Assembly: GCA_030614005.1 (NCBI GenBank)
Contig: JAUWKS010000113.1
Coordinates: 1 to 5,166 of the forward strand
DNA length: 5,166 nt
DNA from: Candidatus Heimdallarchaeota archaeon
Lineage (GTDB): Archaea > Asgardarchaeota > Heimdallarchaeia > JABLTI01
Direction of reading: 5' to 3'
Shown here piece after piece: positions 1,401-5,032 of this stretch (its first letter is position 1; each line of letters begins with the position of its first letter). The notes beneath the pieces were generated by a model that saw nothing but the letters and a program-made list of their open reading frames with translations, was not told the origin of the DNA and did not search any database. The position numbers and the translations under genes are program-made.

Positions 1401-1616
1401 TCCCGCTTATCAACAGCTAGTAAATATAACATTTGTTCCTAATATATCTAATAGTATTTTAAAAATATATACATATTGTTCTCTAACAAAAATGATAGTG
1501 CGTTTTCTACTTCCCATAACCGCACATCCTTCTAACACCAATTATTATCCTTATTTATTTTGTTTGAGTAATTTTAAATTGTCTTCTTAAACTCTGCTTG
1601 GAAAAGCTGTACGATA

Positions 1617-1640
1617 AGCTATTTTATAAAATGTTTAGCT
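1617..1640. promoter_or_regulatory. Palindromic AT-rich TATA-like element in the divergent intergenic region
   Basis: ATTTTATAAAAT (1621-1632) is a perfect palindrome containing TTTATAAA on both strands and is bracketed by AGCT (1617-1620, 1637-1640). A second TATA-like TATATAT lies at 1684-1690, about 20-30 nt before the tnpB ATGs at 1711/1720. Confidence 0.35.
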
Positions 1641-1710
1641 AAGTAAACTATTATTAGTTTCGGTAATCTCCTTAAATAATAACTATATATCAAGCTAACA
1701 ATAAGATAAT

Positions 1711-2980
1711 ATGTGCAAAATGTCTGCAACCGAAACCCTCGTAAGAACTCACAAATACAGACTCTATCCGAGTAAGAAGCAAGAAGCAATATTTACAGAG
1801 TGGTTAGAAACATGCAGACGATTATACAATTATTTTGTCCGACAACGATTTGATCATTGGGAGATCGAAAAACAGTTACCAAAGGGATACCGAACTTACA
1901 TATCATATTTTGACCAATGCAAACAATTACCAGAACTAAAAAAAGACAATCACTATCTAAAACGAGCATATGCAGCAGTTTTAGTTAATGTTGCAAAAAG
2001 AGTTGATAAGACTTTTTTGAATTTTATTCGAGAAATAAGTAAAGGAAATTCAAAATACGGAAAACCAAAGTTCAAGTTTAGATTATGTTATAATTCCTTC
2101 ACTTATCCACAACCAGGCATTAAACATCAAAAATTCAGAATAGAGGATAACAGAATATATCTTGGAAAAATAGGTCATGTTAAGATTATCGTAGATAAAG
2201 ACTTTCCAAATAGAGCAATTCTCAAAACTTGCACAATAAAACGTGAAGTGAATCAATGGTATGCTCATATAAGTTTCACTCAAATTGTAAGTATTCCTGA
2301 ACTTCAAATCAATGAGAATAAAGCAATAGGTATTGACTTAGGAATTAAGACTTATGGAGTTCTTAGTAATGGAAAGGAGATTAAGAATCCAAAATGGTTA
2401 CAAGCAATGGAAAAGAAGTTGGTAAGAGAACAAAAAAATCTATCGCGAAAAAAGAAAGGGTCTAAAAATTGGAAAAAACAATTGATTAAACTTTCGAAAA
2501 TTTACCGAAAAATTAGACTTCAAAGAAATGATTTTCTCCATAAAGAAACTACAAAATTAGCTAATGATTATGATTTAATTGTCCTCGAAGATTTACGAAT
2601 TAGTAACTTGATAAGAAACAGCAGATTAGCTAAAAACATTAGTAATGTATCTTGGGGGATCTTTCAAAATCTTCTTTCATATAAAGTCAATGAAAAAGGA
2701 AAAAAGCTCCTTAAAGTAAATCCTCGAAACACCAGCCAAATTTGTAGTAATTGTGGAGAGATGGTTAGAAAAAGTTTGAAGATTAGAATACATGAATGCC
2801 CTAACTGCAATATTGTTCTTGATAGGGATTTGAACGCAGCAAAGAACATTCTACAAAAGGGATTGAATGAATTACGGTCATCAATTGACAACACCGTTGG
2901 GTTAACGGGAAGTGCTTGTGGAGAAGTTTCAGTGGAAACTCAAGGAAGCAAGAAATTTGTTAAAACAACAAATAAACCAA
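1711..2980 (+). mobile_element. Solo tnpB (IS1341-like) element or domesticated derivative; no transposase gene; left end not identified
   Basis: tnpB plus a right-end-like scaffold ending in ...AAACCAA (2974-2980). There is no tnpA (Y1 or serine recombinase) ORF in 1410-1710 or downstream. Confidence 0.5.
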
Positions 2981-2991
2981 AGCATGGATAG
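1711..2991 (+). CDS. tnpB: IS200/IS605-family RNA-guided endonuclease TnpB, 426 aa, catalytic residues apparently intact
   Basis: N-terminal HTH_OrfB-type motif KYRLYPSKKQ...LETCRRLYN; RuvC-I AIGIDLG (D209); RuvC-II IVLEDL (E293); zinc finger TSQICSNCG..HECPNC (C345/C348/C363/C366); RuvC-III DRDLNAAKNI (D373). The start may be Met4 at 1720. Confidence 0.96.
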   Translation: MCKMSATETLVRTHKYRLYPSKKQEAIFTEWLETCRRLYNYFVRQRFDHWEIEKQLPKGYRTYISYFDQCKQLPELKKDNHYLKRAYAAVLVNVAKRVDKTFLNFIREISKGNSKYGKPKFKFRLCYNSFTYPQPGIKHQKFRIEDNRIYLGKIGHVKIIVDKDFPNRAILKTCTIKREVNQWYAHISFTQIVSIPELQINENKAIGIDLGIKTYGVLSNGKEIKNPKWLQAMEKKLVREQKNLSRKKKGSKNWKKQLIKLSKIYRKIRLQRNDFLHKETTKLANDYDLIVLEDLRISNLIRNSRLAKNISNVSWGIFQNLLSYKVNEKGKKLLKVNPRNTSQICSNCGEMVRKSLKIRIHECPNCNIVLDRDLNAAKNILQKGLNELRSSIDNTVGLTGSACGEVSVETQGSKKFVKTTNKPKHG

Positions 2992-3000
2992 TGCGTCTAA
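2890..3000 (+). ncRNA. Predicted TnpB omegaRNA (reRNA): scaffold about 2890-2980 plus guide about 2981-3000
   Basis: Overlaps the tnpB 3' end, as is established for TnpB omegaRNAs, and has the familiar ACCGTNGGG..ACGGGAA..GCTTGTGGAG..GAAGCAAGAA layout. Visible hairpins: CCGTT/AACGG (2894-2908), AGTTTC/GAAACT (2925-2940), ATTTGTT/AACAAAT (2955-2973). CTTG (2915-2918) can pair with CAAG (2949-2952). Boundaries are inferred. Confidence 0.7.
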
Positions 3001-3026
3001 TTTGCATTATCCCTATTTTATTTTTT
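2986..3026 (+). terminator. 9-bp hairpin followed by T-rich tract; probable end of the tnpB/omegaRNA transcript
   Basis: GGATAGTGC (2986-2994) pairs with GCATTATCC (3004-3012) with one G-U pair and a 9-nt loop. It is followed by TTTTATTTTTT (3016-3026); oligo-T tracts are established archaeal termination signals. Confidence 0.5.
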
Positions 3027-3042
3027 CAACTAAAACCTATAG

Positions 3043-3050
3043 TTTATAAA
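3043..3050 (+). promoter_or_regulatory. Archaeal TATA box for tRNA-Arg
   Basis: TTTATAAA ends 32 nt upstream of the mature tRNA 5' end (3082) and is preceded by A-rich AAAACC (possible BRE). The spacing fits a start near 3072-3076 with a short 5' leader. Confidence 0.6.
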
Positions 3051-3081
3051 TTCTTAACTTTGACTTAGTAACCAGATACTC

Positions 3082-3190
3082 GGGTGTGTAGTACAGCACG
3101 GATAGTGCGTCTGCTTGCGGAGTAATAATGAGTTGTTGCTCTTTATTCCGTATTAGAAGATCGGCGGTTCAAATCCGCTCACACCCGCCA
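3082..3190 (+). tRNA. tRNA-Arg(GCG), intron-containing, CCA encoded
   Basis: Acceptor stem GGGTGTG/CACACCC (7/7 pairs); D stem GTAC/GTGC with GG and A20 in the loop; anticodon stem TCTGC/GTAGA after splicing; anticodon GCG at 3117-3119; variable loop AGATC; T arm GGCGG-TTCAAAT-CCGCT; G73 and CCA (3187-3190); TTTTTT just downstream (3192-3197). Confidence 0.95.
3123..3153 (+). other. 31-nt archaeal tRNA intron at position 39/40 with a bulge-helix-bulge-type motif
   Basis: Central 4-bp helix GCGG (3117-3120)/CCGT (3148-3151); 3-nt bulges AG^T (3121-3123) and AT^T (3152-3154); inner stem AATAA/TTATT plus GAG/CTC with a TTGTTG loop. Cutting after the second nt of each bulge restores a correct 5-bp anticodon stem and 7-nt loop. 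Confidence 0.85.
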
Positions 3191-3201
3191 ATTTTTTACC
3201 T

Positions 3202-3471
3202 TTATATTATATTTGAGAGTAACTTTGGTAGTGGAACATCTTTTGCAGGTTTTTTCCAGAACTTCCACATATTTTCGACCCTTGCTTCGTATCTTTCAGC
3301 TAAATCTTTCTTTCCTGTTCCTCTGTATAATTCAGCTAAGCTTAACCAATTATTTACTTCAGATGGGTCAATTTTTCTAGCTAATTCATAGCATTTAATG
3401 GCTTCTTCTTTCCAGATAATAGTAAAATTATCAAATACAGATGTAAAAGTAGCATATAACATTGAAGTCAT
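3202..3471 (-). CDS. Small tetratricopeptide-repeat (TPR) protein, 89 aa, possibly truncated
   Basis: EEAIKCYELARKIDPSEVNNWLSLAELYRGTGKKDLAERYE matches the TPR consensus (A..Y..A..DP....W..LA..Y...G....A). The N-terminal ~20 aa do not look TPR-like. Confidence 0.6.
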   Translation of the reverse strand: MTSMLYATFTSVFDNFTIIWKEEAIKCYELARKIDPSEVNNWLSLAELYRGTGKKDLAERYEARVENMWKFWKKPAKDVPLPKLLSNII

Positions 3472-3588
3472 GACTTTTCACTATTAATAGTTGATATAAC
3501 ACTTTTCTCTACACAACAATCTTATAATTTAATATTCTGTGTATTTAGTACAATTACCTTTGGTAGTGTTACTAGTGGAGGATTCTAT

Positions 3589-4125
3589 TTGACCTTTGAA
3601 GATCTTGACAGTTATGAAACAATAGTAAAGATGAGAGAAGAACCTGATTTTAACCGTATTAGAAGTGAAATTCTAACTTTGCTTGCAGACAATAAAGATA
3701 TGGTTCTTGCTACTTCCCTTGATAATAGAGTTTCTGCTAGAATTGTTTCCTTTGTCAATGATGATTTCACAATCTATTTCTTTTCTTGGGAACACAACAA
3801 GAAAATCATTCAATTGAGAGGGAACAAGAATGTAGCTTTTAATTTACGCAAACTTCAAATTGAAGGTGAAGCTGAGGTGCTTGGTCGAGCAAATAGCGAA
3901 AAATTCAAAGCTATTGGTGATTTATTTCGAGCTAAATTTTCGTCAAAATGGTATGATTCTTTTTCGAGTGTTAAAGAGATGGTTTTGGTTAAAGTAATCC
4001 CATTAAGGATTGTTAAATTTGAGTCCGCTCACAGACGTTTCCATATACAGAATATCGATTTGACAAATAGTAAAGTCTACCAGATGAGAATCGAGGATAA
4101 AGATAATCCTCATTTCCCTTACTAA
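3589..4125 (+). CDS. Pyridoxamine 5'-phosphate oxidase-like (FMN-binding split barrel) family protein
   Basis: MVLATSLDNRVSARIVSFVNDDFTIYFFS..HNKKIIQLRGNKNVAF..LQIEGEAEVL is the typical PNPOx-like pattern. TTG start with a GGAGG ribosome-binding site at 3577-3581. Confidence 0.85.
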   Translation: MTFEDLDSYETIVKMREEPDFNRIRSEILTLLADNKDMVLATSLDNRVSARIVSFVNDDFTIYFFSWEHNKKIIQLRGNKNVAFNLRKLQIEGEAEVLGRANSEKFKAIGDLFRAKFSSKWYDSFSSVKEMVLVKVIPLRIVKFESAHRRFHIQNIDLTNSKVYQMRIEDKDNPHFPY

Positions 4126-4171
4126 ATAAGGACAAACAAAGCTGAAATAATTTGAATGTCAAATAGTCAGC

Positions 4172-5032
4172 TTATTTCTTTAATTTGCCTAGAGTAAAAC
4201 CATCGCCCGGTCCTTTGTATCTTGGATATTGCTCTCTGTCTAGAGTTGGCTTTTTGTATAATACCGCATCTTCGGGGCATAAGTGATAGCATCTTAAACA
4301 GAATATGCAGCTTTCTCCCCAGGAGAAAATTTCATCTTCAAAAGTAATATTTTCTGTTGGACAGTTGTCAACACATTGCATACATTGTGTGCATGTTTCT
4401 TCATCCACGTAATAATTTCGAGCATATTTATACAACTTTCCAAATCTCATTTCCACTCTTTGCATTAACCCTCCTGCAACATTTACCGGATCCCACCCTT
4501 GTATCCAGCGTTTATTACTTACAATTCGATCTACTAATTTAGCGATTTTTGGTAATGCTTTTTTCTTCTTTACCCAATCATTTTCTTCTCCATTTTTTAT
4601 TGGAAATCGTTTGAAAATCGGGTATGGTAATTTCACATTATTTGGCATTCGTATATTAGTTGCTTGTTTTACTTTGAATCCTTTCTTTTTTAGTTGTCTT
4701 CTCGCGACTAATGCACCGTCTCCACTAAAAATCATCATTGTGGTATACACAAAAGCGTTCTTGTTTTTTACTGGTGCAAGGCTCTTTATGAAATTCATAA
4801 AAACTAATGGAATATCTGACCCATAGATTGGATAGCCAAAACCAACTATATCTGAATGGTTGATCAGTTCATTTACTTTTTTTCCATCTTGAGCAATTTT
4901 CGATTCTACTGAGAAATATTCTACCTCAAAATTTTTTTCTTTGAGCATTTGATGTAATTTTTCTGTTGCCCACCAAGTATTACCAGTGCCACTAAAATAG
5001 AAGATTGTAATTTTTATTGGAAACAACTCCAA
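4172..5032 (-). CDS. EFR1-family ferrodoxin (N-terminal flavodoxin domain plus C-terminal 2x[4Fe-4S] domain)
   Basis: Flavodoxin loop FYFSGTGNTWW and VGFGYPIYGSDIP; two ferredoxin motifs CTQCMQCVDNCP and CIFCLRCYHLCP. The exact TTG start is uncertain. Confidence 0.88.
   Translation of the reverse strand: MELFPIKITIFYFSGTGNTWWATEKLHQMLKEKNFEVEYFSVESKIAQDGKKVNELINHSDIVGFGYPIYGSDIPLVFMNFIKSLAPVKNKNAFVYTTMMIFSGDGALVARRQLKKKGFKVKQATNIRMPNNVKLPYPIFKRFPIKNGEENDWVKKKKALPKIAKLVDRIVSNKRWIQGWDPVNVAGGLMQRVEMRFGKLYKYARNYYVDEETCTQCMQCVDNCPTENITFEDEIFSWGESCIFCLRCYHLCPEDAVLYKKPTLDREQYPRYKGPGDGFTLGKLKK

What the first reader, a model, noticed from the sequence alone, without database searches (positions are those of the whole stretch)
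2981..3112. TnpB guide position holds a copy of the neighbouring tRNA-Arg gene: candidate tRNA-gene-targeting RNA-guided system
Seen: directly after the last scaffold hairpin and ...CCAA (2977-2980), the sequence AGCATGGATAGTGCGTCT (2981-2998) matches 3095-3112 of tRNA-Arg(GCG) at 17/18 nt. The similarity starts exactly at the inferred scaffold/guide junction and lasts about one guide length. Established: TnpB uses the ~16-20 nt beyond the element right end as its guide, which normally matches the empty donor site behind a 5' TAM. Inference: this guide has the same sense as the tRNA, so it would form an R-loop on the tRNA gene, with candidate TAM (T)AGTAC (3089/3090-3094). Possible roles are cutting a tRNA gene or allele, repressing tRNA-Arg transcription, attacking tRNA genes carried by viruses or mobile elements, or homing to tRNA loci (by analogy to the tRNA-homing short spacers of type V-K CASTs). 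The simpler alternative is an old insertion into a tRNA-Arg copy, of which only 18 nt survive. I do not know of a described solo TnpB with this arrangement, but I cannot search the literature.
Basis: partly seen in the sequence, partly recalled or inferred. Interest (0 to 1): 0.88.

Follow-up and report, generated by a model that had tools for sequence, protein, structure and literature searches.

The report
tRNA-derived guide in a conserved TnpB locus
An intact RNA-guided TnpB nuclease gene in a Heimdall (Asgard) archaeon carries a copy of part of the neighbouring tRNA-Arg gene where its guide should be, and because the arrangement is conserved, under selection and repeated at a second tRNA-Arg gene, it may be a selfish or defensive cassette aimed at tRNA-Arg genes, though cutting is untested.

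Summary
2981-2998 matches tRNA-Arg(GCG) 3095-3112 at 17/18, and no shuffle gives a second match. The match starts within about 3 nt of where related omegaRNAs end.

- **Conserved.** Eleven orthologous Heimdallarchaeal loci (72-98% aa) have tnpB, scaffold, the same 18-mer and tRNA-Arg(GCG). dN/dS is 0.09-0.20 and the RuvC motifs are kept.
- **Under selection.** The 18-mer is as conserved as the scaffold (12/18 invariant). It is also the 5' arm of a covarying hairpin followed by a T tract.
- **Repeated.** A decayed paralogue before tRNA-Arg(TCG) has the same design. Its guide slot matches a foreign allele 18/19 and the resident 16/19.
- **Travels with tnpB.** Four loci without tnpB in the same genus lack the 18-mer.

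The proposed TAM slot varies, and mobile relatives use T-rich TAMs.

Best reading (about 0.4): a working guide aimed at non-linked tRNA-Arg copies, for homing or exclusion like phage T4 SegB. Main rival (about 0.3): a fossil flank kept as a terminator. I class it as a new variant of a known kind.

The parts
1584..1710 (+). Upstream promoter / 5' region of tnpB ('type A' left side)
   Evidence: Shared at about 70-86% identity with at least 8 other tnpB-like loci of the same genome. It is therefore a repeated module, and the GTAC at 1609-1612 is internal to it, not a tRNA remnant. Homology with the same-genus orthologue starts at 1584.
1720..2991 (+). tnpB coding sequence (423 aa; an alternative ATG at 1711 gives 426 aa); stop codon 2989-2991
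   Evidence: Pfam HTH_OrfB_IS605, OrfB_IS605 and Cas12f1-like_TNB. ISDra2 TnpB structures 8EXA/8H1J match at about E 1e-51. Motifs GIDLG, LEDL, DRDLNAA and two CxxC are present. dN/dS is 0.09-0.20 among 10 orthologues.
2877..2980 (+). omegaRNA scaffold. Hairpins at 2877-2889, 2894-2908, 2925-2940 and 2955-2973, then the tail AAACCAA at 2974-2980
   Evidence: Alignment A1 of 11 loci. 96-100% of cells are paired, with compensatory changes in helices 2 and 4. The nucleotides stay conserved where the reading frame ends earlier or runs on (L071, L074, L073), so the constraint is not on the protein.
2981..2998 (+). Guide slot: an 18-nt copy of tRNA-Arg(GCG) nt 14-29/31
   Evidence: 17/18 to 3095-3112. 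12/18 columns are invariant in 8 lineages, equal to the scaffold. Absent from four tRNA-Arg(GCG) loci without tnpB in the same genus.
2986..3012 (+). Hairpin: GGATAGTGC (2986-2994) pairs with GCATTATCC (3004-3012), with a 9-nt loop
   Evidence: 97% of cells paired. Two pairs show changes on both sides (GC/AU/UA/GU and CG/UA). Present in the MFE fold. The terminator scan flags it. An analogous hairpin exists in the paralogue.
3016..3026 (+). T tract (TTTTATTTTTT) directly after the hairpin; a likely end of the tnpB/omegaRNA transcript
   Evidence: Terminator-like call. Present, with variation, in all orthologues and in a locus without tnpB (G008). That archaeal transcription terminates at oligo-T is established knowledge; termination here is inferred.
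3043..3052 (+). TATA-like box (TTTATAAATT) of the tRNA promoter, about 30 nt upstream of the tRNA
   Evidence: The surrounding columns 166-181 score 0.92 (10/16 invariant) across lineages. This region is shared with a locus without tnpB (G008). Promoter function is inferred.
3082..3190 (+). tRNA-Arg(GCG) gene with encoded CCA; anticodon 3117-3119; intron about 3125-3155
   Evidence: Rfam RF00005, 40.4 bits. The intron is placed by comparison with intron-less orthologues.
3088..3112 (+). Candidate target: TAM slot 3088-3094 (GTAGTAC) plus protospacer-like 3095-3112
   Evidence: The only near-match to the guide in the genome. The slot varies among orthologues. No cleavage or binding data exist.
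1494..1503 (+). Third copy of the 10-mer GATAGTGCGT upstream of the element; meaning unknown
   Evidence: Seen (inside family D1). Also present in the 98% orthologue L081. Absent from the G010 orthologue, whose homology with the window starts only at 1584.

Best explanation
The window holds a solo tnpB with its omegaRNA, locked in front of the single tRNA-Arg(GCG) gene. The 18 nt after the scaffold work as its guide. They derive from tRNA-Arg(GCG) nt 14-31.

The TnpB-omegaRNA complex recognises tRNA-Arg(GCG) gene copies other than the linked one. These could be alleles without the element on sister chromosomes or on incoming DNA, or copies brought by integrating mobile elements. It cuts them.

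Repair from the chromosome that carries the cassette then favours inheritance of the cassette (tnpB, guide, promoter and linked tRNA allele). Alternatively, the foreign copy is simply excluded. The logic is that of a free-standing homing endonuclease such as phage T4 SegB, but RNA-guided.

The linked tRNA would be spared by seed mismatches or an unsuitable TAM slot. The hairpin that sequesters guide nt 6-14 would raise the barrier against imperfect targets and also end the transcript before the tRNA promoter.

**Shown:** anatomy, conservation, selection, the second locus, and absence of the 18-mer from loci without tnpB.
**Inferred:** that the 18-mer is loaded as a guide, the identity of the target, cleavage, immunity, and homing.
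For: 1. **Selection on the nuclease.** tnpB is under purifying selection at one fixed site over synonymous divergence above 1. The RuvC and zinc-finger motifs are kept.
2. **Selection on the 18-mer.** It is as conserved as the scaffold. Its unpaired bases are invariant, and conservation drops where the tRNA similarity ends.
3. **A second, independent case.** The paralogue before tRNA-Arg(TCG) has a tRNA-derived guide slot taken from a different part of that tRNA (nt 20-38). None of 20,000 shuffles matched as well. It is again hairpinned.
4. **Guide length.** In both loci the tRNA similarity lasts 18-19 nt and then stops.
5. **Better match to foreign alleles.**
   - The paralogue's guide matches the tnpB-free G004 allele 18/19 and the resident 16/19.
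   - The L070 guide matches the G007 allele 17/18 and the resident 13/18.
   - The variable guide positions 11 and 16 take bases also seen in natural tRNA alleles.
6. **Mismatches in the linked tRNA.** All 11 linked tRNAs have at least one mismatch within guide nt 1-12.
7. **Patchy presence at one site.**
   - Only 2 of 11 genomes of the genus carry it.
   - G003, G007 and G008 have an intact tRNA without tnpB; G002, G004 and G005 have a broken one.
   - Decayed copies exist (L084, L021, L022, G006).
   - No Y1 TnpA was found in this genome.
8. **The 18-mer travels with tnpB.** Four loci without tnpB lack it. A normal element of another clade shows the ordinary pattern, where the guide is native flank.
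9. **Recombination breakpoints.** They cluster at or just upstream of the tRNA.
Against: - **No biochemical or RNA data.** The mature omegaRNA 3' end is unknown.
- **TAM slot.** In the tRNA alleles it is not T-rich and it varies. The nearest mobile relatives use TTTAT or TTTAA.
- **Slot differs in the paralogue.** There it reads CCGGAT or GCCCGG, unlike the W-type slot.
- **Risk of self-targeting.** The linked tRNA in this window has one mismatch, and that one is a possible rU:dG wobble.
- **No perfect target seen.** No natural allele with a perfect match to any guide was found.
- **Occluded guide.** The hairpin covers half of it.
- **tRNA 5' half not inherited with tnpB.** L073 and L074 share their tRNA but have tnpB with dS about 1.6. 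Simple homing from a break inside the tRNA does not predict this.
- **No arms-race signal.** tRNA-Arg(GCG) is not clearly more variable than other tRNAs in this genus.
- **Few independent lineages.** They are related, so counts overstate independence.
Confidence: 0.4

Rival explanations
1. Fossil flank kept as a terminator. An ancestral tnpB element became joined to a partial copy of the tRNA-Arg gene, by insertion or by illegitimate recombination. Such fragments are common att-site debris in these genomes. The tRNA-like flank has no target today. It is conserved because it forms the hairpin and T tract that stop tnpB transcription before the essential tRNA promoter. tnpB persists for reasons unrelated to this sequence.
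For: - Hairpin with compensatory changes plus a T tract.
- tRNA-Arg(GCG) is an integration hot spot with fragment arrays (G003) and broken copies (G002, G004, G005).
- Half-tRNA fragments of other tRNAs are frequent in the genus.
- No co-variation with the linked tRNA.
- The TAM slot is not T-rich.
- Truncated tnpB copies keep the omegaRNA, hairpin and tRNA region, as expected if that DNA serves the tRNA locus.
Against: - It does not explain why unpaired bases of the 18-mer (AGC, G.CT) are invariant while the rest of the loop varies.
- It does not explain why the similarity stops at guide length in two independent loci.
- It does not explain why both loci use the guide itself as the 5' arm.
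- It does not explain why an intact nuclease is kept at dN/dS about 0.15 at a single fixed site with a patchy distribution.
- No tRNA 5' part lies left of the element.
- An insertion directed by a T-rich TAM cannot have produced either junction.
- The paralogue's hairpin has no T tract after it.
Confidence: 0.3
2. Regulator in cis. The complex binds the linked tRNA-Arg gene, forming an R-loop on the template strand over the D-arm, without productive cutting. It tunes transcription of the tRNA, as TldR proteins and short-guide TnpB do.
For: - 17/18 match in this window, with 13 contiguous matches.
- The target is 114 nt downstream on the same strand.
- The arrangement is conserved.
- Guide-length-dependent switching of TnpB between regulation and cutting has been engineered (PMC13507860, abstract listed).
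Against: - The RuvC triad is intact, unlike TldR.
- The linked tRNA has 4-6 mismatches in most orthologues, including seed positions. Contiguous matches are as short as 3-5 nt there.
- The TAM slot is not conserved.
- The distribution within the genus is patchy, which is unlike a host regulator.
Confidence: 0.1
3. Wrong register. The element's right end lies after the hairpin, near 3012-3020. The tRNA-like 18-mer and the hairpin are then part of the omegaRNA or right-end structure, and the true guide is the T-rich sequence that follows.
For: - Compared with a locus without tnpB (G008), the occupied loci carry tnpB plus about 27 extra nt, and shared sequence resumes at TATCC.
- The 9 nt after the hairpin (CTATTTTAT) loosely resemble the right-end tails of relatives (GTAGTTCAT/C).
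Against: - By position after the conserved GGAAGC motif, the hairpin at 2955-2973 is the homologue of the last hairpin of the relatives.
- The paralogue's slot has an unrelated sequence but the same position, so the slot is locus-specific as a guide is.
- Half of the hairpin's 3' arm is native DNA also present at the locus without tnpB (G008).
Confidence: 0.08

Closest known systems
IS200/IS605-family TnpB with omegaRNA (OMEGA systems; ISDra2 TnpB, PDB 8EXA/8H1J)
   Same: Domain set, RuvC and zinc-finger motifs, an omegaRNA scaffold overlapping the 3' end of the gene, and a guide slot directly after the scaffold.
   Different: - One copy per genome at one fixed site.
- No Y1 TnpA found in the genome, and no canonical left end.
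- The guide slot is not native flank: four loci without tnpB lack it.
- It copies a nearby essential gene and is folded into a hairpin.
- The TAM is unknown.
TldR, TnpB-like nuclease-dead repressors (PMC10705468)
   Same: A tnpB derivative fixed at a host locus, with a guide that matches a neighbouring host gene.
   Different: - The catalytic motifs are intact here.
- The match lies inside the tRNA body, not in a promoter.
- The match is not maintained with the linked gene.
- The distribution is patchy.
Free-standing homing endonucleases of T-even phages, notably SegB, which cuts tRNA genes of related phages (PMC2330249, as cited in PMC13565253)
   Same: - The nuclease gene sits beside its target gene, not inside it.
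- The target is a tRNA gene.
- The better match is to alleles that lack the nuclease.
- The linked allele differs at the target site.
- Occurrence is patchy.
   Different: Recognition would be by RNA guide. Cleavage, immunity and co-conversion are all untested here. The host is a cellular archaeon, not a phage.
Type V-K CAST homing spacers that target tRNA genes (bioRxiv 10.1101/2021.02.06.429022)
   Same: A Cas12/TnpB-lineage effector with a dedicated guide matching a tRNA gene next to the element.
   Different: None of the window's five long ORFs is a Tn7-like transposition protein. There is no CRISPR array. The nuclease looks active, not inactive.
Engineered hairpin-gated guide RNAs
   Same: The guide is paired with a downstream complementary arm. 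In engineered systems this raises mismatch discrimination.
   Different: This would be a natural case. The effect on TnpB is unknown, and the hairpin may simply be a terminator.

Membership tests
TnpB / OMEGA RNA-guided nuclease (IS200/IS605 accessory protein) | OrfB_IS605 (RuvC) and zinc-ribbon TNB domains with a D-E-D catalytic triad | tested here: met
   Pfam hits; match to ISDra2 TnpB structures. GIDLG, LEDL and DRDLNAA in this window and seven orthologues; L065 and L085 each missed one regex and were not checked; CxxC x2 in all ten.
TnpB / OMEGA RNA-guided nuclease (IS200/IS605 accessory protein) | Structured omegaRNA scaffold overlapping the 3' end of tnpB, followed by a guide | tested here: met
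   Four conserved helices with compensatory changes. The slot position agrees with the right ends of relatives to within about 3 nt. No Rfam model matches it.
TnpB / OMEGA RNA-guided nuclease (IS200/IS605 accessory protein) | Mobile element: several copies with defined left and right ends, a TAM at the left end, a TnpA in cis or trans, and a guide equal to native flank | tested here: not met
   Single copy plus one decayed paralogue. No Y1_Tnp in the genome, which is 90% complete. The left side is either a shared promoter module or an AbrB module. Four loci without tnpB lack the guide. Serine-recombinase TnpA was not searched.
TnpB / OMEGA RNA-guided nuclease (IS200/IS605 accessory protein) | TAM-dependent cleavage of DNA complementary to the guide | not testable with these tools
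   Needs a TAM library and cleavage assays.
TldR (nuclease-dead TnpB repressors) | Loss of RuvC catalytic residues | tested here: not met
   The triad motifs are conserved.
TldR (nuclease-dead TnpB repressors) | Guide complementary to the promoter of a conserved neighbouring gene, maintained across orthologues | tested here: not met
   The match is inside the tRNA body and drops to 12/18 with the linked gene.
Free-standing homing endonuclease ('intronless homing', SegB-like) | Nuclease gene adjacent to, not inside, the gene it targets | tested here: met
   The guide slot lies 114 nt upstream of its only genomic near-match. The layout is the same in 11 loci and in the paralogue.
Free-standing homing endonuclease ('intronless homing', SegB-like) | Alleles lacking the nuclease are sensitive; the linked allele is resistant through polymorphism at the site | tested here: inconclusive
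   Foreign alleles match 17/18 and 18/19 against 13/18 and 16/19 for the residents. Every resident has a mismatch in guide nt 1-12. This window's resident has only one mismatch, no perfect target was found, and the TAM is unknown.
Free-standing homing endonuclease ('intronless homing', SegB-like) | Patchy distribution with occupied, empty and decayed sites | tested here: met
   2 of 11 genus genomes are occupied. Sites without tnpB and broken sites. Truncated or stop-ridden copies.
Free-standing homing endonuclease ('intronless homing', SegB-like) | Co-conversion of flanking markers together with the nuclease gene | tested here: inconclusive
   Breakpoints lie at or just upstream of the tRNA. 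However, the tRNA 5' half does not track the tnpB lineage (L073 and L074).
Type V-K CAST tRNA homing | Tn7-like tnsB/tnsC/tniQ genes and a CRISPR array with a homing spacer | tested here: not met
   Window ORFs are tnpB, a TPR protein, a PNPOx-like protein, a flavodoxin/ferredoxin protein and a secreted repeat protein. No repeat array was found.
Hairpin plus T-tract transcription terminator | Stable stem followed at once by a T run, with pairing conserved | tested here: met
   Actual termination cannot be tested here. The paralogue's hairpin lacks a T tract.

The most novel reading that the evidence does not exclude
An RNA-guided 'poison-antidote' or homing cassette on an essential tRNA gene in Asgard archaea. 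The TnpB-omegaRNA complex, with a hairpin-gated guide copied from tRNA-Arg, cuts tRNA-Arg alleles that are not linked to it. A resistant tRNA allele travels with it. The cassette would spread or persist by recombination without any transposase. The same design arose twice, at tRNA-Arg(GCG) and at tRNA-Arg(TCG).
Probability: 0.28. Interest if true: 0.9.

Novelty: new variant of a known kind. Interest (0 to 1): 0.72.

Why it matters
TnpB is known in two roles. As a transposon helper its guide is whatever DNA flanks the element. In nuclease-dead form it is a domesticated repressor.

This would be a third state. The nuclease motifs are intact, the gene is locked at one site, and its fixed guide is copied from an essential neighbouring gene and gated by a hairpin.

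If it works as proposed, it would be an RNA-guided counterpart of free-standing homing endonucleases. It would show a route by which tnpB persists without a transposase, and it would be a natural example of guide gating.

The locus also gives a testable set of natural guide and target variants: 8 guide variants and about 14 tRNA alleles. If it turns out to be a fossil, it still shows that omegaRNA 3' regions can be co-opted as insulators in front of tRNA genes.

Tried and rejected
1. **Left-flank relic idea.**
   - The left flank 1485-1612 aligns collinearly with 2981-3100 (p about 0.004 against genome background). I read this as a decayed promoter plus tRNA 5' part.
   - I rejected it. 1584-1710, including GCTGTAC, is a repeated upstream module of at least 8 other tnpB-like genes.
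2. **'Neutral drift' of the guide.**
   - I inferred this from the single G010 comparison.
   - I rejected it after 11 loci showed conservation at scaffold level.
3. **Arms-race test.**
   - I asked whether tRNA-Arg(GCG) is hypervariable against other tRNAs of the genus. It is about 85% identical, against Glu 92-99%, Arg(CCG) 82-95% and Leu(CAG) 83-88%.
   - The result is inconclusive.
4. **TAM slot comparison.**
   - The slot is altered in 5 of 9 occupied lineages and in 0 of 6 alleles without tnpB.
   - This is confounded by phylogeny, so I do not use it as evidence.
5. **RNA evidence.** No RNA holder was listed for 2600-3250, and no reads were laid.
6. **Rfam.** No family matches the omegaRNA or the GC-rich element.
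7. **Search for a perfectly matching natural tRNA allele.** The scan of genome contigs returned only G003 and G007.
8. **Scaffold pattern scans.**
   - They added two new orthologous loci (L084, L085) in metagenome contigs. The genome-contig scan re-found only the two G010 loci.
   - No further paralogue-type copy turned up.
9. **Literature.** Two full-text searches found no description of a TnpB with a tRNA-derived guide.
10. **Origin of the junction.** Insertion into a tRNA, tandem duplication followed by excision, an att-fragment origin and a fold-back origin were all considered. None could be established.
11. **AAACCAA at the locus without tnpB (G008).** It belongs to the 3' end of the upstream ferredoxin gene, which is also present in G003. 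It is probably coincidence or microhomology.
Full report
**1. The observation**

The window is a whole 5,166-nt contig of a 3.6-Mb genome with 33.5% GC. Its same-genus relative G010 is deposited as a Candidatus Heimdallarchaeota MAG.

- The ORF 1711/1720-2991 is a TnpB. Pfam finds HTH_OrfB_IS605, OrfB_IS605 and Cas12f1-like_TNB. ISDra2 TnpB structures match at about E 1e-51.
- A tRNA lies at 3082-3190 (Rfam, 40.4 bits), with anticodon GCG at 3117-3119. Comparison with intron-less orthologues places a 31-nt non-canonical intron at about 3125-3155.
- 2981-2998 repeats 3095-3112 at 17/18. No shuffle of the window gives a second match even at 3 mismatches. It is the only near-match in the genome.

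**2. Is it the guide slot?**

Two related mobile clades were used for comparison. One is 42-47% identical in protein and the other about 38%. Both have many copies, and the copies diverge 8-10 nt after the last scaffold hairpin.

In the window that hairpin is 2955-2973 and the tail AAACCAA ends at 2980.

The scaffold helices are supported by compensatory changes.

**3. The arrangement is old, conserved and under selection**

Protein searches, contig look-ups and a scaffold pattern scan gave 11 orthologous loci at 72-98% amino-acid identity. All of them have the scaffold, the same 18-mer (consensus AGCNYGGATANTGYGYCY), a promoter region and tRNA-Arg(GCG) about 85 nt downstream.

- Ten have an intact tnpB. 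Pairwise dN/dS is 0.09-0.20 with dS up to above 1, and the D/E/D and CxxC motifs are kept.
- The eleventh (L084) keeps only the last 63 codons but retains the omegaRNA, the 18-mer and the hairpin.
- The nucleotide conservation of the tail and the 18-mer is not due to coding. The reading frame ends earlier in L071 and L074 and runs on in L073.

**4. The 18-mer itself is under selection, and it sits in a hairpin**

| Region (8 lineages) | Major-allele frequency | Invariant columns |
|---|---|---|
| 18-mer | 0.90 | 12/18 |
| Scaffold | 0.92 | 53/69 |
| Rest of the hairpin loop | 0.78 | 1/5 |
| T tract | 0.76 | 5/24 |
| Proximal promoter (-35 to -1) | 0.77 | 10/40 |

- Unpaired bases of the 18-mer (AGC, G.CT) are invariant. 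Conservation falls where the tRNA similarity ends.
- Nt 6-14 pair with 3004-3012. 97% of cells are paired, and two pairs change on both sides.
- A T tract follows, and the terminator scan flags exactly this site.

**5. A second, independent case**

A paralogue on contig C7 is 69% identical in nucleotides and has 13 in-frame stops. It lies in front of tRNA-Arg(TCG).

- After the same scaffold tail comes a 19-mer that matches nt 20-38 of that tRNA at 16/19. None of 20,000 shuffles did as well, and it is the only near-match in the genome.
- This 19-mer also pairs with downstream sequence.
- It matches the tRNA-Arg(TCG) allele of the tnpB-free relative G004 at 18/19.
- G010 keeps a 5'-truncated copy with an identical guide slot. 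G006 keeps only a remnant.

**6. The 18-mer is not native upstream DNA**

- In the same genus, G008 has an intact tRNA-Arg(GCG) without tnpB. It shares the promoter up to TATCC but lacks the roughly 27 nt that hold the 18-mer and the loop. G003 also lacks them, but its spacer upstream of the tRNA is unrelated. G007 likewise has an intact tRNA with no tnpB in front of it.
- G002, G004 and G005 have a tRNA broken after nt 20-23. G004 and G005 also have a 5.4-kb insert carrying a second, divergent tRNA-Arg(GCG).
- As a control, an ordinary element of the 38% clade upstream of tRNA-Arg(GCG) in G012 has a matching empty site in G050. That pair shows the normal pattern: TAM TTTAA, and a guide equal to native flank.

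**7. What argues against targeting the linked tRNA**

- Identity of each guide to its own tRNA is 17, 16, 14, 14, 12, 12, 13, 13, 13, 14 and 13 of 18. Most guides match other alleles better. For example, the L070 guide matches the G007 allele 17/18.
- The proposed TAM slot varies: GTAC, GTTC, GTAT, GTAA, GCAA, GCTC. The mobile relatives use TTTAT or TTTAA.
- tRNA alleles and tnpB lineages are shuffled. L073 and L074 share the tRNA but have tnpB with dS about 1.6. L071 shares its tRNA and proximal promoter with the tnpB-free G008 allele.

**8. Reading**

A nuclease kept at dN/dS about 0.15 would load whatever follows its scaffold. That sequence is conserved at scaffold level, and its only known complements are tRNA-Arg(GCG) genes. 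The cassette is patchy in the genus (2 of 11). It has no Y1 TnpA partner in this genome. It always sits at the same site, and it decays in some lineages.

I therefore favour (0.4) a functional guide aimed at tRNA-Arg copies not linked to the cassette. This is homing or exclusion in the manner of free-standing homing endonucleases such as T4 SegB, which cuts tRNA genes of related phages. The hairpin would serve as terminator and possibly as a specificity gate.

The main rival (0.3) is a fossil tRNA fragment retained as a terminator. Such fragments are common here. A cis-regulator (0.1) and a shifted right end (0.08) are less likely.

The unknown TAM, the missing RNA ends and the absence of any cleavage data are the main gaps.

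**9. Comparison and novelty**

The protein is a member of the TnpB family. The element fails the tests for a canonical mobile IS200/IS605 unit, and it fails the TldR and CAST tests.

Two full-text searches found no description of a TnpB whose guide slot copies a neighbouring tRNA gene. I class it as a new variant of a known kind.

Two other first-stage notes on this same stretch were seen. One concerns the single mismatch and the other the hairpin. The hairpin note is confirmed here. The mismatch note is extended by the cross-allele comparison.

Noticed in passing
window 3082-3190 (intron about 3125-3155): The tRNA-Arg(GCG) intron lies at a non-canonical position in the 3' strand of the anticodon stem. 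It is present in some orthologues (L081, L071, L075, L084, G008) and absent in others (G010, L065, L070, L073, L074). ARAGORN misses the gene by default, and with introns allowed it calls it tRNA-Gly(TCC).
   Followed up: partly
G000 contig C7 about 20760-20861 (L021); L065, L070, L071, L074, L075 upstream of tnpB; G000 C9:99211-99297, 65324-65410, 157825-157897: A GC-rich structured element of about 100 nt is about 93% identical between paralogous loci whose tnpB genes are only 69% identical. It always lies next to a small AbrB/MazE-like gene. Four copies exist in this genome. Three of them carry a different cargo: a protein of about 315 aa and one of about 96 aa. No Rfam family matches it.
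   Followed up: partly
window 1584-1710; G000 C86, C15, C9, C48, C78, C97, C89, C7:12-134: The region upstream of tnpB is a repeated module shared by at least 8 other tnpB-like genes. In G010 and L073 it is paired with a divergent gene starting ...LNW..DP.... In L073 that gene encodes a 552-aa protein with a weak LAGLIDADG_3 hit.
   Followed up: partly
L109 (G005:C73:29300-35700), L111 (G004), L094 (G002), L110 (G003:C30): tRNA-Arg(GCG) is a hot spot for mobile elements in this genus. G004 and G005 have the promoter plus tRNA nt 1-20, then a 5.4-kb insert with a HEPN-like gene and its own divergent intron-bearing tRNA-Arg(GCG), then only the tRNA 3' end. G003 has an intact tRNA followed by two direct 3'-fragment repeats.
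   Followed up: partly
L132 (G012:C32) against L133 (G050:C149): A clean occupied/empty pair for a different, multi-copy tnpB element that inserted about 85 nt upstream of tRNA-Arg(GCG). The TAM is TTTAA and the guide is the native flank GTGTTCTAGGAATC....
   Followed up: yes
L046-L063 (Asgard families f26, f28, f29): The clade of mobile tnpB elements 42-47% identical to this one has TAM TTTAT, a left-end hairpin CCCCCCAACTTGTTGGGGGG, and a right end ...GGTAGTTCAC.
   Followed up: yes
window 1494-1503: A third copy of GATAGTGCGT lies upstream of the element, inside a GTGCG...CGCAC hairpin. It is also present in the 98% orthologue L081. Its meaning is unknown.
   Followed up: partly
window 3082-3112 against L081: This window and the 98%-identical locus L081 match at every base from the end of the scaffold to the tRNA start. 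Within the tRNA D-arm they differ at three positions (nt 9, 12 and 23; the last two form a compensatory stem pair). Their flanks differ completely right after the CCA end.
   Followed up: partly
window 3202-5032 against G010 (L012) and G008 (L092): Gene order around the cassette is rearranged between relatives. The PNPOx-like gene is downstream here but upstream and inverted in G010. The flavodoxin/ferredoxin gene (4172-5032, minus strand) is the direct upstream neighbour of the tRNA in G008 and G003.
   Followed up: partly
G000 C71:90626-90718 and C58:11178-12328: ARAGORN calls a tRNA-Pyl(CTA) and a tRNA-His with a 1,057-nt intron. Neither was checked, and either may be spurious.
   Followed up: no
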